A DNA stretch of 64,000 nt from a candidate division WWE3 bacterium RAAC2_WWE3_1 (GTDB taxonomy: Bacteria; Patescibacteriota; WWE3; UBA101185; UBA10185): NCBI GenBank assembly GCA_000503835.1, contig CP006914.1, forward strand, positions 785,680 through 849,679, in the 5' to 3' direction. The first letter of the stretch is position 1; every line of letters starts with the position of its first letter. Below are positions 11 to 63,963 of the stretch, one piece after another. The position numbers were made by a program, and so were the translations under genes. The notes beneath the pieces are model-generated. The model was not told the DNA's origin and ran no database searches. It saw only the letters and a list, made by a program, of their open reading frames with translations.

Positions 11-2827
11 ATGTATAGCAACAATAATCCTACTCTCGACGCCCTTCTTACAAATTCTTTGGGGACAAAGACACTTTTGGATTTGGTCCGGCGTTCGGAA
101 GCAAAGTTCGTTCTTATATCAACGATTGACGTTTATCAGGGGAGGATGTCTCAGGACGAACTGGCCAAGTATTTCGGTCTTTCCAAACCGGAAGAAAATA
201 AATTCAGCTTGATAGAAGCAAAAAGATTCGCCGAGGCCGTGGTTTGGGAATATTTCAAAAAATACGATCTCGATGTCCGCATAGTCCGCTTGCCTGAAGT
301 TTACGGTCCGCGCATGAGCCTGGACTCAAGTGGCGTGATGGGTGTTTACATAAGGACTTTGATCGAGAACAGAGACATTGAAGTTCAGAACGACGGCGTG
401 GAAAAGGAATACTACCTTTATGTTTCCGATGCTGTCAGCGGCATCCTGAGGTCGATGTTCAACCGGGAAACAAAAGGAAATATTTATTCACTCGTACCGG
501 AATCAGCTATCACACAACTTGAACTTGCCTATCTTTTAAGAAGTGTGGCTGACGGCAACCTTCAGATTAGTTTTAAACAATCCGGATTTTCTATGCCTTT
601 CAGAGGTCCCGCGCCCGAGACGTTTAACCTAAAAGATTTGTCGTGGAAACCACGTATAAACCTGAAATCCGGAGTTGTGGATACATTGAAGTGGTTTGGA
701 TACGCCGTAAATCAGAACGCCTTTAAACCTACCAAATATGTTGAAGAGAGAGCAATCTCAAGGGGTACACAGACCACCACGGTAAGACCGCCCGAACCTC
801 CGAAGGTAAGTTCGATTTATCCGACAAATAGTGCCGACCTGTACACGAAAATGTATCCGGTCAGGAATATTAAGACCCGCAAGCGTTTTAATCCGGCGTC
901 AATATTCAGCAGGCACAAAAATGATGGTGCAGTTAAAAGCCTAACCCCTTCAAAAAAGCTCCCCGGATTTTTAGGGAACTCAAAATTTTATGTAGCCGTT
1001 GCGCTGATCGTTTCGGCGGTGTTGGTGTTTTTGGTCAATCCTGTTTTTAGTTTTTATTCAAATGCCCGTTCAGGAGCAGAGGCAATGCAAAGAGTCGCGG
1101 CTGCCGGTTCCGCACTTGATGTAGACAGTTTGTCGAAGAATGCTATTCTTGCTTCCGACAAATTCGAGGTTGCAAGAAAAAATCTTTCAAATCTCAAGTG
1201 GGTTTTCTCATTTTCGGGCAGATCCCAGGAATACATAAGTTATTTCCGTATGCTTTCTTCCTTACAAAACTTTTCGGATTCGGTGGAGCATCTTTCAAAA
1301 TCGGCCGAACCTTTGGAGGGAATGTGGGAGGTTCTACGTCCCGATACTAAAGATGTGCTGACACGTGAAACAGTTAACACCGCAAAACTTGAAATAGACT
1401 CGGCACAGAAACTTCTCTATATAGCCCAGGCCGATTTTAACGGGGTGGACAAAGTGCACATCCCCGAAAAATATAGGGGTTACGTATCGGATTACGGAAA
1501 ATATATAAGTACTCTCCAGCAAAATCTTGATCTGACAACTAAAATTATCGGAGAAGCCGCCGCCGTTCTGGGTGTCGACAAGGAAACCACGTATATTGTA
1601 TGGTTTCAAAATTCGAACGAGATAAGACCGACAGGTGGTTTCATAGGTTCATACGGGCTCTTAACTTTTGATAAGGGCAAGCTGAAAGACCTAAAGATTG
1701 ATGACATATACAACCCGGATGGCCAGATTCTGCTGAGGGAGATAAAGACAGTCCCGCCGGAGGTAATTTCCAAGTACCTGACCGAGGATAGACTTTACCT
1801 TAGGAATTCAAACTGGGATCCTGACTTTCCGACGGCAGCCGGCGTATTCAACGATTTGTTTTACAAAATAGACGGTCAGCGCGTTGACGGATATATTGCT
1901 GTAGATCTTAAATTTGTCGAGGGAATATTAAAAGCTACGGGTCCGGTGTTCCTGGCTGCTTACAACGAAGAGATTAACGCTGAAAACCTTTATGAGAGAA
2001 CGCAGTTTCACAGTGACTTCAATTACGTTCCCGGTTCCGATCAAAAAAGGTCTTTTCTAACTGTATTGGGAAGCAAACTGCTCGAAAAAATGTTCTCGCT
2101 CCCAAAAGATAAACTGCCTAATTTACTTGCGGAGACTCAAAGATCTCTCGATGAGAAACATTTGTTAATAAACTTATCGAACGGTGCGTTAAACGATGTA
2201 TTAAGAGAAAAAAATTGGAACGGGCAGGTTGTCCCCGTTGAAACCGATTATCTCTATGTTGTCAATTCCAACCTGGGCGGAACAAAAGCAAACTATTTTG
2301 TGAAGAATAACATCGATTATGAAATAAATTCCATGACACGCGACGGAGTGTTGAGAGCTACATTAAAGCTTACCTACAACCACACAGGAGAATCAATGGC
2401 GTGGCCGGGGGGTCCTTATAAGGATCATGTGAGGGTGTTGACTCAAACGGGATCTAAACTTACGGGGGCTGAGTTTATCGACGCCGCCGGAACCACTCTC
2501 GATGTGTTTAAAGATATAAAAGTAGGGGCTCCGAACGGATACGATGTTTTCAGCTATGATCTGATTGTTAACCCCAAGGAAACCGTTTCCCTGGTTTTAA
2601 AGTATGATCTTTCGGAGAGTCTTAATGTAACTAAAGACATGTCCTCTTACGCCTTGTATGTTCAGAAACAACCCGGAACGGACGCCGACCCGTTCAGTTT
2701 TACTTTCAACGCGCCGTTCGGTACAGAAATCATAAAAGCAAGTAAGGGGCTGGACATTTTGAACAATGGTATAGCAAACACATCGGATCTGCGCAGGGAT
2801 ATAAATTACTTTATAGAACTTCGCTGA
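11..2827 (+). CDS. 5' partial (open to the window edge). A degenerate NAD-dependent epimerase/dehydratase-like (SDR) segment is fused to a TM segment and a DUF4012-like extracytoplasmic domain.
   Basis: N-terminal 230 aa show a UXS/GalE-like pattern (RIVRLPEVYGPRM). The catalytic Tyr of YxxxK appears replaced (LIEAKRFAE). A hydrophobic segment follows (FYVAVALIVSAVLVFLV), then the DUF4012 hallmark IRPTGGFIGSYG. The frame is open back to nt 2. Confidence 0.5.
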   Translation: MYSNNNPTLDALLTNSLGTKTLLDLVRRSEAKFVLISTIDVYQGRMSQDELAKYFGLSKPEENKFSLIEAKRFAEAVVWEYFKKYDLDVRIVRLPEVYGPRMSLDSSGVMGVYIRTLIENRDIEVQNDGVEKEYYLYVSDAVSGILRSMFNRETKGNIYSLVPESAITQLELAYLLRSVADGNLQISFKQSGFSMPFRGPAPETFNLKDLSWKPRINLKSGVVDTLKWFGYAVNQNAFKPTKYVEERAISRGTQTTTVRPPEPPKVSSIYPTNSADLYTKMYPVRNIKTRKRFNPASIFSRHKNDGAVKSLTPSKKLPGFLGNSKFYVAVALIVSAVLVFLVNPVFSFYSNARSGAEAMQRVAAAGSALDVDSLSKNAILASDKFEVARKNLSNLKWVFSFSGRSQEYISYFRMLSSLQNFSDSVEHLSKSAEPLEGMWEVLRPDTKDVLTRETVNTAKLEIDSAQKLLYIAQADFNGVDKVHIPEKYRGYVSDYGKYISTLQQNLDLTTKIIGEAAAVLGVDKETTYIVWFQNSNEIRPTGGFIGSYGLLTFDKGKLKDLKIDDIYNPDGQILLREIKTVPPEVISKYLTEDRLYLRNSNWDPDFPTAAGVFNDLFYKIDGQRVDGYIAVDLKFVEGILKATGPVFLAAYNEEINAENLYERTQFHSDFNYVPGSDQKRSFLTVLGSKLLEKMFSLPKDKLPNLLAETQRSLDEKHLLINLSNGALNDVLREKNWNGQVVPVETDYLYVVNSNLGGTKANYFVKNNIDYEINSMTRDGVLRATLKLTYNHTGESMAWPGGPYKDHVRVLTQTGSKLTGAEFIDAAGTTLDVFKDIKVGAPNGYDVFSYDLIVNPKETVSLVLKYDLSESLNVTKDMSSYALYVQKQPGTDADPFSFTFNAPFGTEIIKASKGLDILNNGIANTSDLRRDINYFIELR

Positions 2828-22568: not shown

Positions 22569-23534
22569 TTGTCCAATATGAAAATTGTCGTAACAGGAGC
22601 TGCAGGCTTTATAGGGTCGCATCTTTCCGAGAGATTAAAAAGTTTGGGTCACGACGTTATCGGGATAGACAGTTTTAATACTTATTACAACCCCGAGCTT
22701 AAAAAATTGAACGCCAAGGATCTTGAGGAAAAAGGAATTTCTATTGAAAAAAGAGATTTGGTGACCGACGATGTTAGCGATGTTATACAGGGAGCCGATG
22801 CCATTTTTCATCTTGCTGCGCAGCCGGGAATATCATCCACAACCCCATTCGAACATTATTTAAACAACAACTTCATTGCTACTAATAACCTGGTAGAGGC
22901 TGCAAGGTCCGCAGGGACAAAGAAATTTATAAACATAGCTACTTCCTCGATATACGGCGCGCACGCGACTGAGGACGAAACTACAGCCCCAAAACCTACA
23001 TCTAATTACGGTGTCACCAAACTTGCTGCAGAACAGCTCGTTCTCTCCTACTTTAGAGATAAGGGGTTTCCTGCTGCATCAGCAAGACTTTTCTCCGTTT
23101 ACGGCGAAAGAGAAAGACCTGAAAAGCTATATCCTAAATTGATAGACGCGATTCTTAACGACAAGCCATTCCCTCTTTTTGAAGGGAGCCAGGAGCATCT
23201 CCGCAGCTACACTTATGTCGGTGATATTATCGACGGGCTCGTACTCATTCTTGATAATTTCGAGAAAAGTGCGGGAGAGATATTTAACCTGGGCACCGAT
23301 CAGGCTATTACAACCGGAGAGGGTATAAAGATTGTAGAAGATGTTCTTGGAAAGAAAGCCGTTTTGGATATTAAGCCAAAAAGACCGGGGGATCAAAAGG
23401 AAACCCACGCCTGTATTGATAAAGCGAGGCGTATATTAGGTTATAATCCGGTTACGACCCCTCAGGTCGGGCTCAAAAAAGAGGTGGATTGGTTTAAGGA
23501 GAAAATATGGAAAAAAATCGACTTATATCTCTAG
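22569..23534 (+). CDS. NAD-dependent epimerase/dehydratase (GalE/WcaG-like).
   Basis: VTGAAGFIGSHL Rossmann motif; YGVTK (YxxxK) present. Confidence 0.8.
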   Translation: MSNMKIVVTGAAGFIGSHLSERLKSLGHDVIGIDSFNTYYNPELKKLNAKDLEEKGISIEKRDLVTDDVSDVIQGADAIFHLAAQPGISSTTPFEHYLNNNFIATNNLVEAARSAGTKKFINIATSSIYGAHATEDETTAPKPTSNYGVTKLAAEQLVLSYFRDKGFPAASARLFSVYGERERPEKLYPKLIDAILNDKPFPLFEGSQEHLRSYTYVGDIIDGLVLILDNFEKSAGEIFNLGTDQAITTGEGIKIVEDVLGKKAVLDIKPKRPGDQKETHACIDKARRILGYNPVTTPQVGLKKEVDWFKEKIWKKIDLYL

Positions 23535-24490
23535 TTATTCCCTGCTACAACGAAGAAAAAAATATAAATAGGACAATTGAAGGTTTGCTGGAACTTGAAA
23601 AGCAGTCGGGCGAAACCTTCGAAATAATTGCCGTCAACGACGGAAGTAAAGACGGAACATGGGGTGTAATCAAAGATTATTCCGAAAAATACCACAATGT
23701 TATCGGTGTTAATTTAATGGCAAATTTCGGACAAAGCGCCGCTTATATGGCCGGATTTGATATTTCAACAGGAGACTACGTGATAACGGTGTCAGCGGAT
23801 ATGGAAATTTCATTGGAAAATATTTCTAAAGTTATCCGGTATCTGGACGAAGGTTACGATTTCGTAAATACGCATCGCGTGGGAAGATGGGGCGACGAGA
23901 AAGCCGGGCGTCAGGCTAAGAGCGGTTTGGCTAATAAAATAATCGCAAAAATATCCGGAGTGACTATGCAGGACAGGGGCTCGGGTATGAAAGGATTCAG
24001 ACGTGTTTTGGTAGAAAACCTACGTTTATACGGAGAAATGCACCGTTTTATCCCCGACTACGTAAAAGTATACGGAGCCAAAATGACCGAATTTGAAGTC
24101 GGGTTCAAAGACCGTGAGTACGGCGAGTCTTACTATAAAGGGCACAAAAGGACTATTAAAGTTTTGCTAGACTTGGTCACTTTATTCTTTATGCTCTATT
24201 TCTCTACAAAACCCTTTAAGGCTATGCCCGGCAGACTGTTCGGTTTTGCGGGGGCACTGATAGCCGGTCTCGGGGGTCTGGGAGCATTTTATCTTTTAAT
24301 ACTGAAATTAATGGGGGAGAGCATCGGAAATAGACCTTTGCTTACCCTGTCGGTCTTATTGATAATAGTAGGTGTTCAGTCGATGATGACAGGTATGATG
24401 GGGGAGCTGAGCATGAGAACCTACTTCGAATCTTCGGGAAGAAAGACCTATATTGTTCGTCAAGTCGCCAAAAAAGGCGGGCAAAACTAG
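23507..24490 (+). CDS. GT2 polyprenyl-phosphate glycosyltransferase (GtrB/ArnC/DPM1-like).
   Basis: LVIPCYNEEKNI...IIAVNDGSKDGT; two C-terminal TM helices. Confidence 0.75.
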   Translation: MEKNRLISLVIPCYNEEKNINRTIEGLLELEKQSGETFEIIAVNDGSKDGTWGVIKDYSEKYHNVIGVNLMANFGQSAAYMAGFDISTGDYVITVSADMEISLENISKVIRYLDEGYDFVNTHRVGRWGDEKAGRQAKSGLANKIIAKISGVTMQDRGSGMKGFRRVLVENLRLYGEMHRFIPDYVKVYGAKMTEFEVGFKDREYGESYYKGHKRTIKVLLDLVTLFFMLYFSTKPFKAMPGRLFGFAGALIAGLGGLGAFYLLILKLMGESIGNRPLLTLSVLLIIVGVQSMMTGMMGELSMRTYFESSGRKTYIVRQVAKKGGQN

Positions 24491-24577
24491 GTCATTCCCG
24501 GTTGTGTTTTAAAGGTTGCAAGCCTTGTGTTCCTTATGTAGCATTGACAGATACAAATTTGTTTTTAGGAGGTATTT

Positions 24578-25321
24578 ATGGAAAAGTCTAAAAGTTCAAA
24601 CATCGTTCAATTAGTACTCATTGCGGCGTTAGTCGGGGCGGCTTTTTATATCGGCGGGCTGTCATCAAAAGTGGGAAAGTTGGAAGAAGCTAGTAAGAAT
24701 AATGCCGGGACGCCTTCTAAAGCTACCGGTGAGGATGCGGCTGCCTTTAATGCTGTGGAACTGGCTTCCACCCTTGGTTTGGACTCGGGAGCTTTCAAGA
24801 CCTGCGTCGACAACCGTGAAACGAAAGCAAGGGTCGAGGAGGAAGAAAAAGGCGGACAGAAAGCCGGTGTATCCGGAACTCCCGGTATATTCATGTTCGA
24901 TACCCAGACAGGAAATTCCGCAGTCATTCCCGGAGCAGTAGATTCCACCACGATGCAGCTTTTTCTTGATAACCTGATTGCGGGGAAAAGCACAACATTA
25001 GGTACTCAGGAGTTCAAACTTGAAAAAGTCGCGAACTTAGTAGCTTTGAATGATGCAGACTACGTTAGAGGAGATAAATCGGCACGTGTGTTGTTGTTCG
25101 AGTATTCCGACTACGACTGTCCTTTCTGCAAAAGGGTTCACCCTACATTAAAAACTCTTCTGGAAAATAACGCAGACAAGGTCGCCTGGATCTACAGGCA
25201 GTTCCCGCTGGATCAGTTGCATCCTACAGCCAGAGCCAAATCCGAGGCCGCGCTTTGCGCAGGAAAGCTCGGTGGAAATGATGTCTTTTGGGCATTTTCC
25301 GACGCACTGGCCACTAAATAA
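24578..25321 (+). CDS. Membrane-anchored DsbA-like thiol:disulfide oxidoreductase whose domain segments are in permuted order.
   Basis: TM, then LGLDSGAFKTCVDN...GVSGTPGIFMF (the C-terminal half of DsbA), then VLLFEYSDYDCPFCKRVHP...AALCAGKLGGNDVFWAFSDAL (the CxxC N-terminal half), after which the protein ends. Confidence 0.6.
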   Translation: MEKSKSSNIVQLVLIAALVGAAFYIGGLSSKVGKLEEASKNNAGTPSKATGEDAAAFNAVELASTLGLDSGAFKTCVDNRETKARVEEEEKGGQKAGVSGTPGIFMFDTQTGNSAVIPGAVDSTTMQLFLDNLIAGKSTTLGTQEFKLEKVANLVALNDADYVRGDKSARVLLFEYSDYDCPFCKRVHPTLKTLLENNADKVAWIYRQFPLDQLHPTARAKSEAALCAGKLGGNDVFWAFSDALATK

Positions 25322-25349
25322 GTGGGGGTAAGAGTCCCCGCTCGTTAAT

Positions 25350-25787
25350 ATGAACAGATCAAGATTATTATTTACTGCAAAATTATTGGCCTCAATAGGA
25401 ATAGGATTGGCCTTGTACTTGTTCGTAAACTACCTGACACAGCCCGCATACAGGCTGTGTACGATAAGTGCCAAAGTCAACTGCGATGCCGTTATTAGCG
25501 GAGAAGTATCCCAAACTTTGGGCATTCCTACGGCTTTATATGGCCTTGTCGGTTACACGGTGATTTTGGTAGCTGCTTTTCTTGGTAAAAAGAAACTTAT
25601 GTTGGGAACTGCTATCTTCGGCGCCCTTTTTTGTATTCGCTTAATTTATATTGAAATCTTCCGAATAGGTGTGATTTGTCCGGTATGTATTTTGTGCTTC
25701 ATAGACATGGTATCTTTACTTACCGTGTCGTATCTTCTGGTCAAGAAGAAAGGTTCCGTTACCCCACCCGTGGAAAACGTGCAGTAA
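25350..25787 (+). CDS. Vitamin K epoxide reductase (VKOR) family protein.
   Basis: Loop Cys pair CTISAKVNCDA and a CPVC redox motif in the last TM; 4-TM topology. Confidence 0.65.
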   Translation: MNRSRLLFTAKLLASIGIGLALYLFVNYLTQPAYRLCTISAKVNCDAVISGEVSQTLGIPTALYGLVGYTVILVAAFLGKKKLMLGTAIFGALFCIRLIYIEIFRIGVICPVCILCFIDMVSLLTVSYLLVKKKGSVTPPVENVQ

Positions 25788-25799
25788 TACCCACCCAGT

Positions 25800-27413
25800 T
25801 TGTATAATAGAGTCATGTTCGGAAACTATCCTGTAAATGATGATTGGGTTTTCTTTTGGCAGGTAAAAGCATTTGCGTCAGGAATCTTTAAAATAAACGC
25901 CGAACTCGATCCGTCATTTGTCGCGCAGGGTTTTTTGGGATTGCTTTGGTCAAAAATATTCGGTTTGGATTATATTTCACTTCAGGTTTTGACTTTTCTA
26001 ATTTCATTAGGAACCGCCTTTTTCGTTTATAGAATTTTATTATTATTGGGTTCACGAAAAATCTATGCGATTGCCGGGGCGCTTACCCTGCTTTTTAATC
26101 CTCTGTTTTTTGTTTCTTCTTTCACTTTTATGACAGACAACTACCTTCTGTTTTTTCTGTCCGCTTCAACCTACTTTTTTGTCCGTTACTTCACAGTGCC
26201 TTCATACAGGAATTTAATAACGGGTTCTTTTTTCGGTATGCTGGCGTCTGCGACCCGCCAGAACGGTATTCTTATTTTTATACCCGCACTTCTGTTGTGC
26301 GCCCTTCCGTTCAATAAAGAAAAATTCAAGAAATTAATAGTGCCTGTGTTTTTCTTTTTCCTTTCCATAGCAATAGCATTATTTTGGCCAAGGTTCGGGG
26401 AGAACAAAAGATTTTTAGAAGTTGCTGATATTGCCGGGCGTCTGCAAAGCCTACTTTATGCTCCCCAATATCTGCTAATATTTTTATCTCCGGTTTTGTT
26501 AGGAATAAGAGGGCAGTTGAAAGGTCTGTGGAGAAAAGTTACCGCCATGCTAATGGCTATTCTCGTTGCCTACTTGCTTTTCACAACAGACCTTTTTCCG
26601 ATGGGCAATGTGGTCTACATCGAAGAACTTTACGCAAAGTCCGACTTCAGATCTAATTTTAGTCTCTTTGATAACATCTTTTTTAAAACGTTTCTCTCCG
26701 TTGTATGGGGTTTTGGTCTTTCCAAGATATTGTTCTATGTGATACCGAAAATTAAAAATATTGCGAAACGCGTCGGTTTGCATAAACAGGAAATATTTCT
26801 GCTACTCTCAGCCGCTTTAAATTATGCGGTCTTATTATTTTCCTCGGACATGTACGATCGCTATCTTCTCCCGGTCTTCTTATTTTTACTGTTATTTTTA
26901 TTCGGGCGGTTGGGCGCGGGTTATTCTCTGGATAAAGTCTCTGTATATTTATCAATCGCTCTTTTCGCGTTTATATCAATTGCTCTTCAGTGGGATTTTT
27001 CGGCGAAGAATAGTTTAATGTGGGAACAGTTAGGGGAACTTAGACAAAAGACGGGGTTGAGTACACAAATAGATCTTAACGACACTTACATAAATCATAT
27101 TACCGTGAGAGAGTCCGGGGATTTTACAGGTTTGGAGCCAAGGCGCGGAAGTTTTGACTCCCTCTGTTTTATTCAGGATTATACGTTGGACAGCACCTAC
27201 CCGTTTTCAAAAAAGGTGGAGAGTCTGGGGCGCGTTCTTTCTTCAAAAACGCTGGAAAACCCCAAACCTGCCGGGGTAAGAAAAAAGACACGCCCACGGG
27301 TCAAAAACAATCTGGACAGTTTGATTATTAACGAAGAATACCCATCCATACTTTATGGTTCGGTTGGGAAAAAGGCGTTTGTCGGAAGTTTTTGCGTGGC
27401 GAAAGACGACTAA
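25800..27413 (+). CDS. GT-C fold membrane glycosyltransferase (ArnT/PMT-like, GT39/GT83-like).
   Basis: About 11 TM segments; an acidic NDDW motif near the N-terminus; a C-terminal soluble domain. Confidence 0.5.
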   Translation: MYNRVMFGNYPVNDDWVFFWQVKAFASGIFKINAELDPSFVAQGFLGLLWSKIFGLDYISLQVLTFLISLGTAFFVYRILLLLGSRKIYAIAGALTLLFNPLFFVSSFTFMTDNYLLFFLSASTYFFVRYFTVPSYRNLITGSFFGMLASATRQNGILIFIPALLLCALPFNKEKFKKLIVPVFFFFLSIAIALFWPRFGENKRFLEVADIAGRLQSLLYAPQYLLIFLSPVLLGIRGQLKGLWRKVTAMLMAILVAYLLFTTDLFPMGNVVYIEELYAKSDFRSNFSLFDNIFFKTFLSVVWGFGLSKILFYVIPKIKNIAKRVGLHKQEIFLLLSAALNYAVLLFSSDMYDRYLLPVFLFLLLFLFGRLGAGYSLDKVSVYLSIALFAFISIALQWDFSAKNSLMWEQLGELRQKTGLSTQIDLNDTYINHITVRESGDFTGLEPRRGSFDSLCFIQDYTLDSTYPFSKKVESLGRVLSSKTLENPKPAGVRKKTRPRVKNNLDSLIINEEYPSILYGSVGKKAFVGSFCVAKDD

Positions 27414-28078: not shown

Positions 28079-28672
28079 ATGAAGAAAACCCTGCCGTTAA
28101 TTATTATAGGTCTTGCCATCCTCGTGGGTCTATATCTCGCATTTCCCCGTACGGTAGATATAACAACGCAGGATATCGGAAGCGGTGTGCAGAAAACAGT
28201 GGAAATAGTAAAGGAGGAAGCAGATCTTAACATCGGAAATAAAGTAGATCTGACAAATAGAGGTTTAACCGCCGTTCCGAAAAGCGTGCTCGACAATTCG
28301 GGTATCATCGAACTCGATCTTTCAGGCAACCCTATTAGTTCAATGCCTTCCCAGGTACAAAACTGGAAAAATCTTAAGGTTTTTAAGGCCGAGAACAATA
28401 TCATGAAGTCTTTACCCGCGGAAATAAGACTTTGGTCGAAAATTGAATCGATAGATGTCAGCGGAAACGGTATGACGGACCTTCCGGCCGAAATTGGTCA
28501 GCTTAGGAATTTAAAAGTTCTGGATCTTTCGAACAACGACATAGACGAATTCCCTAACGAACTGTTAAACCTTACGCAGCTTGAAACACTGGATCTGAGG
28601 GGCAATCCGGTTAAGAGCGATCATCTTGAGAGGATAAAAGGTAAACTGACTGATACGGAAATTTTGTTTTAG
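28079..28672 (+). CDS. Leucine-rich repeat protein (secreted or membrane-anchored).
   Basis: N-terminal TM, then about six LRRs (LxLSxNxIxxxP). Confidence 0.7.
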   Translation: MKKTLPLIIIGLAILVGLYLAFPRTVDITTQDIGSGVQKTVEIVKEEADLNIGNKVDLTNRGLTAVPKSVLDNSGIIELDLSGNPISSMPSQVQNWKNLKVFKAENNIMKSLPAEIRLWSKIESIDVSGNGMTDLPAEIGQLRNLKVLDLSNNDIDEFPNELLNLTQLETLDLRGNPVKSDHLERIKGKLTDTEILF

Positions 28673-62037: not shown

Positions 62038-63165
62038 TTAATCACAATCTGTTCCTAATCCTCCGACACAATTTTCAGTCGGCGGTTTGCCCCGCTCAGG
62101 GCATTTTTCAGAGTAAATACATGCTCTGTCTGTGACTTCTGACAACTGTTTGTCAGAGACTTCAACAGTCGTAGTACTAAAACTCATAACAATTCTGTCC
62201 AGGTCCTTAAACTCATACCCTCTCCAATTACCGGTTTGTTTTTTTCCGTTTACGTACCAGCTCACCCCGGATGGCAGGTTTGCCTTCCAGGAGTCAATAA
62301 GCTGACCCAGGGTAACGCCGGTTTTATGTTTATGGATTACTTCTTCAGTATCTTTATGCGAGTGAATATCGGGGTCTTTTTCAAAATATTCCGGACGATC
62401 CTGAAGCAGCACCTTTTTCCCATTCACATATAAAGCAAGGTCTGCGTGTTCATGAACTTTTTCACCCGTTGATTGACCGGAGGGTTTTGGAGCTTTAAGA
62501 ATAGCCGCATTGATAAAGGTTTTGAAATCCTCCGGAGTTTTGGGATTGGGAATTTTGTCGCCATTGAGAAAAAAGGACGGTGTACCGGAAACGCCCAGTC
62601 TGGTACCCGAGTTTTTATCCCGTTCAACCCTGTCTTTTACTTCTTTTGAGGCCACATCCTTTTTAAATTGATCCATATTAAGCCCAAGTTGTCTTGCATA
62701 TTCTTCGAAAATCTTTGGGTCAGCGGCTGGTTTTTCGCCCCATTTTTTTTGTTCTTCAAATAACTTGTCATGCATCTCCCAGTACTTGCCCTGTCTGGCA
62801 GCGGCCTCAACAGCAAGGGCAGCCGGCAGACCATTTTTGTGTCCGGGGAGCGGGAAATAGCGATTGACAAAACGAACCTCGGTTTTGAATTCTTCTGCCA
62901 GTTGTTTTACCAGGGGATAATATGCACCGCAGGCTTCGCATTCAAAATCCAGATATTCAACCAGGGTTACTGAAGCTTCTTTGTTCCCTTTAATATAGTC
63001 ATCTGACACTACTTCAAGTAATTTTTTCTGTTCATCGGAAACGGGTGTGGAATTATTCGTGGTGGAGGATGATGAAGAGCCCATTTTGCTGGCGAAAAAT
63101 ACACCGCCCACCAAAACGACAACCGTAACGATCATTATTCCTAATACAAATTTGTCCTTAAACAT
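62038..63165 (-). CDS. DsbA-family thioredoxin-fold protein with a C-terminal Cys/His-rich extension.
   Basis: TM; a CEAC redox motif in canonical position; GVSGTPSFFLNG; extra C-terminal domain of about 150 aa. Confidence 0.6.
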   Translation of the reverse strand: MFKDKFVLGIMIVTVVVLVGGVFFASKMGSSSSSTTNNSTPVSDEQKKLLEVVSDDYIKGNKEASVTLVEYLDFECEACGAYYPLVKQLAEEFKTEVRFVNRYFPLPGHKNGLPAALAVEAAARQGKYWEMHDKLFEEQKKWGEKPAADPKIFEEYARQLGLNMDQFKKDVASKEVKDRVERDKNSGTRLGVSGTPSFFLNGDKIPNPKTPEDFKTFINAAILKAPKPSGQSTGEKVHEHADLALYVNGKKVLLQDRPEYFEKDPDIHSHKDTEEVIHKHKTGVTLGQLIDSWKANLPSGVSWYVNGKKQTGNWRGYEFKDLDRIVMSFSTTTVEVSDKQLSEVTDRACIYSEKCPERGKPPTENCVGGLGTDCD

Positions 63166-63211
63166 ATTTTGTTATTTTACTATGTTTTGTAGTAATTTTT
63201 AAACCCTTTAT

Positions 63212-63430
63212 TTATGAGGCGACTTTCACCTCATATTCCAGTGACTTTATAACTTCAATAATCTTTCCCAGGTTAACCACATTCGGATCGAAAGTGACAA
63301 CCGTTTTTTGCTTAGCGTAATTTGTGCTGGCTTCCCTGACACCCTTTAAGTCCTCCAGCTCAAAGTCAATATTCATGGCACAACTGGTGCAATGCATGCC
63401 GACAATTTTTAATGTTACCGTTTTCATCAT
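63212..63430 (-). CDS. copZ: Copper chaperone CopZ (HMA domain).
   Basis: LKIVGMHCTSCAMNI (MxCxxC). Confidence 0.75.
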   Translation of the reverse strand: MMKTVTLKIVGMHCTSCAMNIDFELEDLKGVREASTNYAKQKTVVTFDPNVVNLGKIIEVIKSLEYEVKVAS

Positions 63431-63435
63431 TTTTA

Positions 63436-63963
63436 TCAGATTACGTTAATGTTTCCTTTAAACATGCCCATACTGCACATAAAAGCAAGCGGACCGGGAG
63501 TTGTGGGAGCGGTAAATTCAATTGTGTCAGACTGGCCGATCGGCACAACTCTTTGCAGTCCCAGTTTAGGAATCGTAAGCGACTGAGCACAGCCGCCGCC
63601 ACCCTGGTTGACAACCGTAAACTTTACCTTTGAGCCGGCCTTGATATTTACAATTCCCGGATCCGTACTGTAACCGTTTCTGGTAATAAAAATTGTCGCT
63701 TCCTTAACCGCCATGGTGGTAGCACCGGCCACTCTTCCTTCATCACAGAAACTGATGGTGCAGTTAATGCCCGTTAAAATGCCGTCCAGGGTGAAACTGC
63801 TACCGCTAAGTGCTAATGCCCCATTAAAATTGTAAACGGCGACCAGAATAATTGCTCCGGCCGCAATCCGATTAAACGTTCCGCTTAAAGAACCGCCAAG
63901 TTTTCGGGCAGCGTAACCAAGCAGGAAGAATAAAGGAGACGTACCCAGCATAAAGACAAACAT
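63436..63963 (-). CDS. Membrane-anchored cupredoxin-like protein; the 5' end may lie beyond the ORF-track start.
   Basis: GSKVKFTVVNQGGGGCAQ...FMCSMGMFKG resembles a cupredoxin with Cys in place of the first His. Confidence 0.35.
   Translation of the reverse strand: MFVFMLGTSPLFFLLGYAARKLGGSLSGTFNRIAAGAIILVAVYNFNGALALSGSSFTLDGILTGINCTISFCDEGRVAGATTMAVKEATIFITRNGYSTDPGIVNIKAGSKVKFTVVNQGGGGCAQSLTIPKLGLQRVVPIGQSDTIEFTAPTTPGPLAFMCSMGMFKGNINVI

What the first reader, a model, noticed from the sequence alone, without database searches (positions are those of the whole stretch)
24578..25321. DsbA-like protein with its thioredoxin and helical segments in permuted order.
The C-terminal half of a DsbA domain (the LGLD helix and the cis-Pro GTPxxF strand) precedes the CPFC-containing N-terminal half, and the protein terminates after the helical insert. 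A canonical-order DsbA paralog (62038-63165) exists in the same window, which argues against a reading artefact. The gene is adjacent to VKOR, its likely reoxidant.
Basis: seen in the sequence. Interest (0 to 1): 0.6.

Follow-up and report, generated by a model that had tools for sequence, protein, structure and literature searches.

The report
Natural circularly permuted DsbA oxidoreductase
This gene encodes a membrane-anchored disulfide-bond enzyme (DsbA) whose two halves are in swapped order yet are predicted to fold into the normal DsbA shape; the arrangement is conserved across many ultra-small (CPR) bacteria and I found no description of it in the papers searched.

Summary
ORF 24578..25321 (247 aa) has an N-terminal membrane anchor. 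The C-terminal part of a DsbA domain follows (last helices of the insert, Thr-cisPro loop, beta4, beta5, alpha7). A 23-residue linker then leads into the N-terminal part (beta1, CPFC helix, beta3, first two insert helices).

- **Pfam:** gives a split, order-swapped hit. Swapping the two segments back by hand restores one collinear hit.
- **AlphaFold2:** models residues 57-247 as one compact domain (pLDDT about 97). Its element order is an exact cyclic shift of a canonical relative modelled as a control.
- **Break point:** it lies in the helical-insert loop that was cut in the engineered, crystallised E. coli permutant cpDsbA_Q100T99 (1UN2). That entry is the best end-to-end PDB match.
- **Conservation:** all catalytic residues are kept, plus a Cys pair (C76, C227) matching the structural disulfide of PaDsbA2. 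That disulfide would bridge the new terminal segments.
- **Distribution:** 78 distinct sequences have this order, and 33 of 80 species-level loci, mostly Patescibacteria. Tandem multi-DsbA proteins are common, which fits a duplication-then-truncation origin.
- **VKOR:** it is adjacent here, in close relatives (L003, L083) and in the more distant L018, but not family-wide.

Verdict: a new variant of a known kind, of moderate interest.

The parts
24567..24572 (+). Ribosome-binding site AGGAGG, 5 nt upstream of the ATG at 24578
   Evidence: Read directly from the sequence.
24578..25321 (+). Whole gene: circularly permuted, membrane-anchored DsbA-class thiol:disulfide oxidoreductase (247 aa plus stop)
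   Evidence: ORF; order-swapped Pfam hit; 100% identical protein P0001 on 53 contigs; AF2 model.
24602..24661 (+). N-terminal membrane anchor (residues 9-28, IVQLVLIAALVGAAFYIGGL) after a positively charged MEKSKSS start; probably an uncleaved signal anchor
   Evidence: Hydrophobic stretch in the sequence; AF2 helix 8-41. The anchor and juxtamembrane motif are homologous to those of canonical WWE3 DsbAs P0034 and P0037 (E 1.5e-9 and 8.8e-9).
24662..24745 (+). Tether (residues 29-56): helix extension followed by a low-confidence, probably flexible stretch
   Evidence: AF2 pLDDT below 50 for residues 41-53; variable length in alignment A1.
24746..24988 (+). Segment equal to the C-terminal part of a canonical DsbA (residues 57-137): insert helices 59-65 and 70-78 (C76), helix 83-95, Thr101-Pro102 loop, strands 103-108 and 114-117, final helix 123-135
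   Evidence: DSBA profile 125-187/191; PaDsbA2 150-214; AF2 elements match canonical control elements H177 to H257.
24803..24805 (+). Cys76, invariant; aligns with PaDsbA2 Cys157 (structural disulfide partner)
   Evidence: Invariant in A1; alignment to 4n30; the PaDsbA2 C111-C157 disulfide is described in PMC3870256.
24878..24883 (+). Thr101-Pro102, the cis-Pro loop motif with the Thr typical of the four-Cys alpha-DsbA class
   Evidence: Invariant in A1; aligns with the PaDsbA2 T183-P loop.
24989..25057 (+). Linker (residues 138-160) joining the old C-terminus (alpha7) to the old N-terminus (beta1); predicted short beta-hairpin 139-146
   Evidence: AF2; the length of this region varies among family members.
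25058..25318 (+). Segment equal to the N-terminal part of a canonical DsbA (residues 161-247): beta1, strand 171-177, CPFC helix 182-197, strand 202-208, insert helices 218-232 (C227) and 234-246
   Evidence: Thioredoxin_4 profile 3-87/165; PaDsbA2 48-128; AF2.
25118..25129 (+). Catalytic Cys181-Pro-Phe-Cys184
   Evidence: Codons TGT CCT TTC TGC read. C181, P182 and C184 are invariant in A1. All 78 permuted sequences keep a CxxC motif: 63 CPFC, 11 CPYC, 3 CSFC, 1 CSYC.
25256..25258 (+). Cys227, invariant; aligns with PaDsbA2 Cys111
25350..25787 (+). VKOR homologue (145 aa, four-TM core) 28 nt downstream; loop Cys37/Cys45 and Cys110-Pro-Val-Cys113; inferred re-oxidant
   Evidence: PF07884 E 5.7e-21; NCBIfam VKOR, below the curated cut-off; all four Cys conserved in the L003 and L018 VKORs.
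22569..24490 (+). Upstream same-strand genes: NAD-dependent sugar epimerase (22569..23534) and GT2 glycosyltransferase (23507..24490); conserved synteny with the permuted DsbA
   Evidence: Pfam; same order in L002, L083 and L084, while the P0060 contig has GT2 but no epimerase.
25800..27413 (+). Downstream PMT/ArnT-like membrane glycosyltransferase, 12 nt after VKOR
   Evidence: PF02366 and PF13231; also follows VKOR in L083.

Best explanation
The gene encodes a natural circular permutant of a four-cysteine (alpha-DsbA / PaDsbA2 / MtbDsbA-like) disulfide oxidoreductase.

**What the evidence shows.** An N-terminal anchor helix holds the protein in the membrane. The chain then runs through what is normally the second half of DsbA: the last insert helices, the Thr-cisPro loop, beta4, beta5 and alpha7. 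A 23-residue linker follows. The chain then runs through what is normally the first half: beta1, the CPFC helix, beta3 and the first two insert helices. The two segments are predicted to assemble within one chain into a single normal DsbA domain. The break lies in the insert loop called L2 (H3-H4) in MtbDsbA. All catalytic and structural residues are conserved across the family.

**What is inferred.**
- The anchor places the domain outside the cytoplasm.
- C76 and C227 form the structural disulfide known from PaDsbA2. Here it would covalently tie the new N-terminal and C-terminal segments together.
- The CPFC disulfide is passed to cysteines of exported proteins.
- The reduced enzyme is re-oxidised by the VKOR encoded 28 nt downstream, through its loop cysteines C37/C45 and then C110-x-x-C113.

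**Likely origin (inferred).** A tandem duplication of the catalytic domain behind the original anchor (anchor-N-C-N-C), followed by loss of the first N part and the last C part.
For: **Swapped order**
- Pfam gives the split, order-swapped hit, and PDB sequence alignment shows the same swap.
- Swapping the segments back by hand (residues 148-247 followed by 54-147) gives one collinear Thioredoxin_4 hit, positions 3-150 of 165, at 75 bits against 63 bits for the native order.
- The same construct gives one 164-residue alignment to PaDsbA2 residues 48-214, at E 2.3e-19 against 3.3e-16.

**One compact fold**
- The AF2 model has pLDDT of about 97 for residues 57-247.
- Its secondary-structure order is an exact cyclic shift of the canonical WWE3 DsbA P0037 modelled as a control. 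The break sits at the control's loop 169-176.
- Foldseek aligns canonical DsbAs to only about 90 columns of the permuted model (4n30: TM 0.47). The engineered permutant 1UN2 aligns over 204 columns (TM 0.52, rank 4).
- The canonical control aligns to 4n30 over 183 columns with TM 0.82.
- hhalign places the junction on E. coli DsbA loop K98-A105, which contains the T99/Q100 cut of 1UN2.

**Real and under selection**
- The identical protein occurs on 53 contigs.
- 24 aligned members, down to 33% identity, keep C76, T101-P102, C181, P182, C184 and C227 invariant.
- 78 distinct C-N sequences all retain a CxxC motif, and 56 end within one residue of the same position.
- 33 of 80 species-level loci are C-N.

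**Cysteine mapping**
- C227 aligns with PaDsbA2 C111 and C76 with C157. That disulfide and its effect on redox potential are described in PMC3870256.

**VKOR**
- It is adjacent here, in L003 and L018 and in L083. The four cysteines are conserved in the window, L003 and L018 copies.
- MtbDsbA next to VKOR is a documented precedent (PMC3792642).

**Origin**
- The anchor is homologous to that of canonical WWE3 DsbAs.
- 92 of 256 retrieved relatives are tandem (N-C) arrays of 2 to 6 domains.
- After de-permutation, permuted and canonical members are up to 63% identical.
Against: - There is no experimental structure or activity, and the fold rests on AF2.
- I could not read model coordinates, so neither the C76-C227 distance nor a non-sequential superposition on 4N30 was measured.
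- The 1UN2 match has a high rmsd (6.5 A) and only 17% identity.
- VKOR is not adjacent in most family members. The partnership is therefore inferred from this genome and from precedent only.
- The strongly conserved canonical loop motif E[VI]TP[SA]NNGL is lost in 76 of 78 permuted sequences. In MtbDsbA that loop helps shape the surface around the catalytic Cys, so specificity or partner choice may differ.
- No half-finished intermediate (C-N-C or anchor-N-C-N) was found among 256 proteins.
- A quick NJ tree does not resolve whether the rearrangement happened once or several times.
It was checked only by the positions of C30, C33, P151, T99 and Q100.
Confidence: 0.82

Rival explanations
1. The order is an artefact. 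It could be an assembly chimera, a local rearrangement in one MAG, or a decaying pseudogene assembled from fragments of two DsbA genes.
For: The window comes from an uncultured CPR genome, and MAG assemblies can be chimeric. One related assembly (L083) shows signs of frameshifts: its TsaE and PMT genes are split and its VKOR reads out of frame over the 3' half.
Against: - The identical protein is found on 53 contigs from NCBI, JGI, ENA and Logan assemblies.
- 78 distinct sequences share the order, across 33 species-level loci.
- Catalytic residues are invariant down to 33% identity.
- The ORF is intact and has a strong ribosome-binding site.
- AF2 is confident across both segments.
Confidence: 0.01
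2. The two half-domains do not pair within one chain. Instead they pair between chains (C-part of chain A with N-part of chain B), giving an obligate domain-swapped dimer or chain on the membrane. Function could then differ, for example towards isomerase-like activity as in dimeric DsbC or trimeric ScsC.
For: Circular permutants and duplication intermediates are prone to domain swapping (general knowledge). The linker varies in length among members, and short linkers could favour swapping. Related ScsC and DsbC proteins act as oligomers, and they appear among the structural neighbours.
Against: - The AF2 monomer model is compact, with pLDDT about 97 in both segments and in the linker hairpin.
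- The query's 23-residue linker is much longer than the roughly five-residue linker I recall was enough in engineered cpDsbA. That figure is from memory of Hennecke et al. 1999. The title of PDB entry 1UN2 states 'preserved global fold'.
- No oligomerisation domain is present.
Confidence: 0.06
3. The fold is a permuted DsbA, but the protein is not the general VKOR-coupled oxidase. It could be a specialised reductase or isomerase, or a dedicated folding factor for a few envelope or glycosylated proteins, with a different redox partner.
For: - VKOR is absent from the neighbourhood in most family members, whereas the GT2 glycosyltransferase upstream is the more conserved neighbour.
- The L2 loop that shapes the active-site surface in canonical relatives is deleted.
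- Two C-N loci have a thioredoxin-reductase-like gene next door.
- Many CPR genomes are reported to lack quinone synthesis (from memory, not tested), which raises the question of what VKOR would reduce.
Against: - The CPFC dipeptide, the Thr before cis-Pro and the extra disulfide are the features of PaDsbA2, one of the most oxidising DsbAs measured at -67.5 mV.
- In this genome VKOR follows at 28 nt with all four cysteines intact.
- The only other DsbA in the window sits in a DsbD_2/HMA/cupredoxin context that looks more reductive or metal-related.
- There is no DsbD/CcdA-type partner next to the permuted gene.
Confidence: 0.11

Closest known systems
Engineered circular permutant of E. coli DsbA, cpDsbA_Q100T99 (PDB 1UN2; random permutation study of Hennecke, Sebbel and Glockshuber 1999, cited in PMC13552848 and PMC3281007)
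   Same: - The new termini are in the same helical-insert loop. hhalign puts the natural junction on E. coli K98-A105, which contains T99/Q100.
- The old termini are joined by a linker.
- It is the highest-ranked solved structure that aligns end to end with the model (204 columns, TM 0.52, rank 4).
- The PDB entry title states that the global fold is preserved.
   Different: - 1UN2 is man-made from a soluble two-Cys gamma-proteobacterial DsbA, and is only 17% identical.
- The natural protein belongs to the four-Cys class and is membrane-anchored.
- It has a longer structured linker.
- It has lost about 10-15 loop residues at the break.
Pseudomonas aeruginosa DsbA2 (PDB 4N30) and the alpha-DsbA class (Wolbachia alpha-DsbA1, 3F4R)
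   Same: - It is the closest solved sequence relative, at E 2.3e-19 after de-permutation.
- It has the same CPFC motif and the same Thr before cis-Pro.
- It has the same extra Cys pair (C111-C157, equal to query C227 and C76), which links two insert helices.
- The break falls in or next to PaDsbA2's coil 131-151.
   Different: PaDsbA2 is collinear and has a cleaved signal peptide. It is recycled by DsbB, not VKOR.
Mycobacterium tuberculosis DsbA (Rv2969c) with adjacent VKOR (Rv2968c)
   Same: - It has an N-terminal anchor or signal.
- It has four cysteines, with a structural disulfide (C140-C192) between insert helices H2 and H5.
- It has Thr before cis-Pro.
- The VKOR gene lies next door, and binding of a VKOR loop peptide has been shown (PMC3792642).
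   Different: MtbDsbA is collinear, has a CPAC active site and carries an extra C-terminal helix H8. Its VKOR is predicted to have five TM helices, against a four-TM core here.
Canonical CPR/WWE3 DsbAs (for example P0034, P0037, P0033)
   Same: - The anchor and juxtamembrane motif are homologous.
- Identity is up to 63% over about 180 columns once the order is corrected.
- The secondary-structure elements are the same.
   Different: They have the normal N-then-C order and keep the E[VI]TP[SA]NNGL loop that is the break site.
Tandem multi-DsbA proteins (for example P0139 at 420 aa, P0122 at 974 aa, P0121 at 1163 aa)
   Same: They contain the contiguous C-part, linker, N-part junction. The query aligns across it in one stretch, for example query 60-244 on P0122 727-891. 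This is the expected precursor state for permutation by duplication.
   Different: They keep complete domains at both ends, with 2-6 full copies. Many have cleavable or lipoprotein signals rather than the CPR anchor. Their taxonomy was not determined.
DsbB/VKOR relationship by circular permutation (PMC4555120)
   Same: It is a proposed duplication/deletion permutation within the same disulfide-forming pathway, affecting the membrane partner enzymes.
   Different: It concerns four-helix membrane proteins and a very old, hypothetical event. It does not concern the thioredoxin-fold partner.

Membership tests
DsbA family (Pfam DSBA PF01323 / Thioredoxin_4 PF13462) | Significant match to the family profiles | tested here: met
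   Thioredoxin_4 at 63.2 bits (cut-off 23.2) and DSBA at 53.2 bits (cut-off 25.6), each in two stretches.
DsbA family (Pfam DSBA PF01323 / Thioredoxin_4 PF13462) | CxxC active site at the start of helix alpha1 of a thioredoxin fold | tested here: met
   C181-P-F-C184 at the start of AF2 helix 182-197; invariant in the family.
DsbA family (Pfam DSBA PF01323 / Thioredoxin_4 PF13462) | cis-Pro loop facing the active site | tested here: inconclusive
   The T101-P102 motif is invariant and aligns with the PaDsbA2 T183-P loop. The cis conformation and the geometry could not be read from the model.
DsbA family (Pfam DSBA PF01323 / Thioredoxin_4 PF13462) | Alpha-helical domain inserted in the thioredoxin fold | tested here: met
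   All insert helices are present (59-65, 70-78, 83-95, 218-232, 234-246), matching the control's H139-168, H177-186, H191-200 and H204-216. The insert is split by the chain termini.
DsbA family (Pfam DSBA PF01323 / Thioredoxin_4 PF13462) | Collinear order: beta1, CxxC helix, beta3, insert, cis-Pro, beta4, beta5, alpha7 | tested here: not met
   The order is cyclically shifted and is collinear only after manual de-permutation. This is why I file it as a variant and not as an ordinary member.
DsbA family (Pfam DSBA PF01323 / Thioredoxin_4 PF13462) | Extracytoplasmic location | tested here: inconclusive
   An N-terminal hydrophobic anchor (residues 9-28) follows a positively charged start. No dedicated topology predictor was available.
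DsbA family (Pfam DSBA PF01323 / Thioredoxin_4 PF13462) | Oxidising redox potential and thiol oxidase activity | not testable with these tools
   This needs biochemistry.
Four-cysteine alpha-DsbA class (PaDsbA2, Wolbachia alpha-DsbA1, MtbDsbA) | Additional conserved Cys pair in the helical domain | tested here: met
   C76 and C227 are invariant and align with PaDsbA2 C157 and C111. The class definition is in PMC3870256. Disulfide formation itself was not tested.
Four-cysteine alpha-DsbA class (PaDsbA2, Wolbachia alpha-DsbA1, MtbDsbA) | Invariant Thr before the cis-Pro | tested here: met
   T101 is invariant in A1. The class feature is stated in PMC3870256.
DsbA-VKOR disulfide-forming pair (M. 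tuberculosis type) | VKOR homologue with a loop Cys pair and a membrane CxxC, encoded with the DsbA | tested here: met
   VKOR at 25350..25787 (PF07884, E 5.7e-21) has C37, C45 and C110-x-x-C113, lies 28 nt downstream on the same strand, and its cysteines are conserved in L003 and L018. Adjacency is not family-wide.
DsbA-VKOR disulfide-forming pair (M. tuberculosis type) | Electron transfer from DsbA to VKOR to quinone | not testable with these tools
   This is inference from gene adjacency and from the precedent in PMC3792642. The quinone source in this organism is unknown.
Circular permutant of a known fold (definition) | Same fold and same elements, old termini joined, new termini elsewhere | tested here: met
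   The secondary-structure order is a cyclic shift of the control. De-permuted alignments are collinear. The end-to-end structural match is to the engineered permutant 1UN2. A non-sequential 3D superposition could not be run.

The most novel reading that the evidence does not exclude
The permutation may be adaptive rather than a neutral reshuffle. It moves both chain ends, and therefore the membrane tether, into the L2 loop that borders the catalytic face. It also deletes the conserved E[VI]TP[SA]NNGL loop. Together these changes could point the active site towards the membrane, where VKOR's loop and nascent Sec substrates emerge. They would also make the CxxC half the last part to leave the translocon. 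A related possibility is that the same loop was cut more than once independently. The quick tree does not show the permuted proteins as one clade.
Probability: 0.2. Interest if true: 0.7.

Novelty: new variant of a known kind. Interest (0 to 1): 0.55.

Why it matters
- **A natural counterpart to a classic engineering result.** DsbA is a textbook enzyme and a classic subject of engineered circular permutation. A widespread natural permutant cut in the same loop as the crystallised engineered one shows that evolution found the solution predicted by protein engineering. It offers a natural system for studying how chain order affects folding during export.
- **Annotation.** Sequential profile and structure searches see these proteins only as half-hits (4 Foldseek hits at E<=0.001 against 207 for the canonical control). 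They are currently labelled 'hypothetical protein', 'thioredoxin domain' or even 'sodium/proton antiporter'. Surveys of disulfide-forming machinery in CPR bacteria may therefore misjudge them.
- **Evolution.** Abundant tandem multi-DsbA proteins sit alongside the permuted form, giving a worked example of the duplication-then-truncation route.

Tried and rejected
- **Model coordinates.** They are not readable in the sandbox (listing), so I could not measure the C76-C227 distance or run a permutation-aware superposition.
- **VKOR as a family-wide partner: rejected.** An iterated VKOR HMM finds VKOR near only L003 and L018 among the 35 C-N proteins identified in the fetched loci. Pfam-labelled contexts of P0023, P0041 and P0060 lack it.
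- **Other conserved neighbours: none found.** Neighbour clustering showed only lineage-specific synteny: GT2, M29 peptidase, sigma-70, a methyltransferase and a thioredoxin-reductase-like gene.
- **Single origin: unresolved.** An NJ tree on a de-permuted alignment of 187 sequences and 182 columns was inconclusive. The best split holds 70 of 75 permuted plus 30 canonical sequences, with 0 of 100 bootstraps monophyletic. Nearest-neighbour identities differ by 0.06 or less. An earlier Biopython NJ run timed out.
- **Half-finished intermediates: none found.** No C-N-C or anchor-N-C-N protein was seen among 256 proteins. An earlier run of that script had a coordinate bug and was discarded.
- **Promoter and terminator scan: uninformative.** Counts equal the shuffled expectation.
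- **NCBIfam: no full-length model.** The only hit is a sub-threshold half-hit.
- **Literature: nothing found.** Searches for natural permuted DsbA or CPR Dsb systems returned nothing relevant. Circular permutations elsewhere in the thioredoxin-like fold are acknowledged in general terms.
Full report
**1. What is at the coordinates**

ORF 24578..25321 (+) encodes 247 aa and is preceded by AGGAGG at 24567-24572. It is followed 28 nt later by a 145-aa VKOR homologue (PF07884, E 5.7e-21). It is preceded by a sugar epimerase and a GT2 glycosyltransferase. A PMT-like glycosyltransferase follows VKOR. All are on the same strand. A 100% identical protein (P0001) is annotated from a candidate division WWE3 bacterium. 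It occurs on 53 contigs from NCBI, JGI, ENA and Logan, the longest 878 kb.

**2.

- Residues 59-127 match DSBA profile positions 125-187 of 191.
- Residues 159-244 match Thioredoxin_4 positions 3-87 of 165.

phmmer against PDB sequences shows the same swap on P. aeruginosa DsbA2 (4n30). Query 163-244 aligns to chain 48-128, and query 69-132 to chain 150-214.

I also swapped the two segments back by hand (residues 148-247 followed by 54-147):
- Pfam then reports a single collinear Thioredoxin_4 stretch, positions 3-150 of 165, at 75 bits against 63 bits.
- PaDsbA2 aligns in one 164-residue stretch, 48-214, at E 2.3e-19 against 3.3e-16.

The paralog at 62038..63165 is collinear.

**3. Structure**

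AlphaFold2 was run on an alignment of 24 family members. It gives pLDDT of about 97 for residues 57-247 and pTM 0.75. The element order is:
- anchor helix 8-41
- helices 59-65, 70-78 and 83-95
- strands 103-108 and 114-117
- helix 123-135
- a short hairpin at 139-146
- strand 171-177
- helix 182-197, which starts with CPFC
- strand 202-208
- helices 218-232 and 234-246

As a control I modelled the canonical WWE3 DsbA P0037 from 30 canonical relatives. Its order is E83-86, E92-98, H103-122, E123-129, H139-168, then loop 169-176, then H177-186, H191-200, H204-216, E224-229, E235-238 and H244-257. The permuted model is an exact cyclic shift of this, with the break at that loop.

| Foldseek against the PDB | Permuted model | Canonical control |
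|---|---|---|
| Alignment to 4n30 | 93 columns, TM 0.47, E 1.4e-4 | 183 columns, TM 0.82, rmsd 2.4, E 9.3e-13 |
| Other canonical DsbAs | about 90 columns at 1.4-2.2 A | full-length alignments |
| Hits at E <= 0.001 | 4 | 207 |
| Engineered permutant 1UN2 | rank 4: 204 columns, TM 0.52, rmsd 6.5 | not in the top 50 |

An hhalign of E. coli DsbA against the de-permuted family profile is collinear over 163 columns. The alignment places the natural junction on the E. coli loop K98-A105, the loop that was cut at T99/Q100 in 1UN2.

**4. Which DsbA class**

The closest solved relative is PaDsbA2. Its paper (PMC3870256) describes:
- a CPFC site (C66, F68, C69)
- Thr183 in the cis-Pro loop
- an extra disulfide C111-C157 linking insert helices 3 and 5, which raises the redox potential from -118 to -67.5 mV
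- a coil at 131-151

By the alignments, query C181/C184 equal C66/C69, and C227 equals C111. C76 equals C157, and T101-P102 equals the T183 loop. The junction aligns to about residues 129-146, in or next to that coil.

In the nomenclature of the M. tuberculosis DsbA paper (PMC3792642), the broken loop is H3-H4, called L2. That paper lists L2 among the loops that shape the surface around the catalytic cysteine. MtbDsbA is also anchored or secreted, has the equivalent C140-C192 disulfide, and is encoded next to VKOR.

If C76-C227 forms here as in the homologues, it would covalently tie the new N-terminal segment to the new C-terminal segment. This is inferred, because I could not read the model's coordinates.

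**5. A conserved family, not a one-off**

- In the 5.8-billion-protein search, proteins covering 95-100% of the query extend down to about 36-40% identity. Canonical DsbAs cover only 33-45%.
- In an alignment of 24 members (down to 33% identity), C76, T101, P102, C181, P182, C184 and C227 are invariant.
- A scan of one genome per species returned 80 loci. Half-domain searches classify 33 as C-then-N and 37 as N-then-C. The C-N loci lie in records labelled WWE3, Peribacteria, Paceibacterota, Nomurabacteria, Colwellbacteria, Kaiserbacteria, Komeilibacteria, Magasanikbacteria and Microgenomates. A few records carry other labels that I did not verify.
- Across everything retrieved there are 78 distinct permuted sequences. 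All keep a CxxC motif (63 CPFC, 11 CPYC, 3 CSFC, 1 CSYC). Of these, 56 end within one residue of the same C-terminal position. Only 2 retain a remnant of the canonical loop motif TP[SA]NNG, which 32 of 114 canonical relatives have.

**6. Origin**

- The membrane anchor and juxtamembrane motif are homologous to those of canonical WWE3 DsbAs (P0034 E 1.5e-9, P0037 E 8.8e-9; 24 of 114 canonical sequences at E<1e-3). The rearrangement was therefore internal to the mature domain.
- After de-permutation, permuted and canonical CPR proteins are up to 63% identical.
- The exhaustive representative search found many long proteins built from tandem DsbA domains. The query aligns in one stretch across a domain junction in them, for example query 60-244 on P0122 727-891.
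- Of 256 retrieved proteins, 92 are N-C, 69 are C-N and 92 are clean tandem arrays of two to six domains.
- This is the substrate expected for permutation by duplication followed by loss of the outer half-domains. I found no half-finished intermediate.
- A quick NJ tree does not resolve one origin from several.

**7. Function and partner**

Shown:
- The fold is predicted with high confidence.
- The catalytic and structural residues are conserved.
- The protein has an anchor.
- An intact VKOR lies immediately downstream. Its loop cysteine pair and its CxxC are conserved in the L003 and L018 VKORs.

Inferred:
- The domain faces outward and donates its CPFC disulfide to exported proteins.
- It is re-oxidised by VKOR, as in mycobacteria.

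The VKOR link is lineage-specific:
- VKOR follows the permuted gene here, in L083 (70% identical protein, where VKOR looks frameshifted) and in L003 (54%).
- In L018 a canonical DsbA lies between the two.
- It is absent in L002, L084, the P0060 contig and 33 of the 35 C-N proteins found in the fetched loci.
- In WWE3-like genomes the more conserved neighbour is the upstream GT2, within a VanZ-TsaE-TsaD-epimerase-GT2-DsbA run (the P0060 contig lacks the epimerase).

The other DsbA in the window has a CEAC site and no extra Cys pair. It sits beside an HMA protein and a DsbD_2-cupredoxin ORF. It looks like a metal-related or reductive-pathway protein. This leaves the permuted protein as the better candidate for the VKOR-coupled oxidase.

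**8. Rivals**

- **Assembly artefact.** Excluded by the recurrence and conservation described above.
- **Intermolecular domain swapping.** Not excluded, but disfavoured by the confident monomer model and the 23-residue linker.
- **A role other than general oxidase.** This remains possible. The L2 loop is lost and VKOR is usually not adjacent.

**9. Novelty**

Circular permutations are acknowledged within the thioredoxin-like fold in general. DsbA is also a classic engineered-permutation subject. Five full-text searches found no report of a natural circularly permuted DsbA or of Dsb systems in CPR bacteria. No NCBIfam model covers the full length. Public names are 'hypothetical protein', 'thioredoxin domain-containing protein' or 'sodium/proton antiporter'.

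I rate it a new variant of a known kind. The chemistry is expected to be ordinary DsbA chemistry. The chain topology and its wide conservation are the new part.

Noticed in passing
window 62038-63963 (- strand): The canonical DsbA paralog has a CEAC site and no extra Cys pair. It carries a His- and Cys-rich C-terminal extension of about 150 aa. It sits next to an HMA metal-binding protein (63212..63430) and an ORF combining a DsbD_2 membrane region with a cupredoxin domain (63436..63963, cut by the window end). This looks like a copper or ScsC-like redox cluster.
   Followed up: partly
window 22569-27413 (+ strand): This is a same-strand cluster: sugar epimerase, GT2 glycosyltransferase with C-terminal TM segments, permuted DsbA, VKOR and a PMT/ArnT-like glycosyltransferase. 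It resembles a secreted-protein maturation unit combining glycosylation with disulfide formation. The upstream run VanZ-TsaE-TsaD-epimerase-GT2-DsbA recurs in L002, L083 and L084, and in the P0060 contig without the epimerase.
   Followed up: partly
proteins P0121, P0122, P0129, P0137, P0139, P0148, P0211 (no window coordinates): Public data hold many proteins built from 2 to 6 tandem DsbA domains, for example 1163 aa with five or more copies. Of 256 retrieved relatives, 92 are such arrays. Their organisms and function were not examined.
   Followed up: partly
L018:1178-3193: A Komeilibacteria MAG carries a permuted DsbA, a canonical two-Cys DsbA and a VKOR in a row on one strand. This is the same trio of gene types that the window genome has spread over two loci.
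   Followed up: partly
L083:427-5996: In assembly GCA_026004595.1 the TsaE and PMT genes are split into two ORFs each. The VKOR after the permuted DsbA loses its CxxC region to an apparent frameshift. These are probably assembly errors rather than biology.
   Followed up: no
L005, L010, L016, L040 (whole loci): Some loci with the permuted gene come from records titled Gammaproteobacteria, Pseudomonadales or Woesearchaeota archaeon. These labels look inconsistent with the CPR-type neighbours and were not verified.
   Followed up: no
proteins P0002 and P0005 (no window coordinates): NCBI names two close homologues 'Sodium/proton antiporter'. This is probably a name carried over from NhaA-DsbA fusion proteins and is a misannotation.
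   Followed up: no
window 28079-28672 (+ strand): A 197-aa leucine-rich-repeat protein (LRR_4 and LRR_8 hits) lies just downstream of the cluster in this small CPR genome.
   Followed up: no
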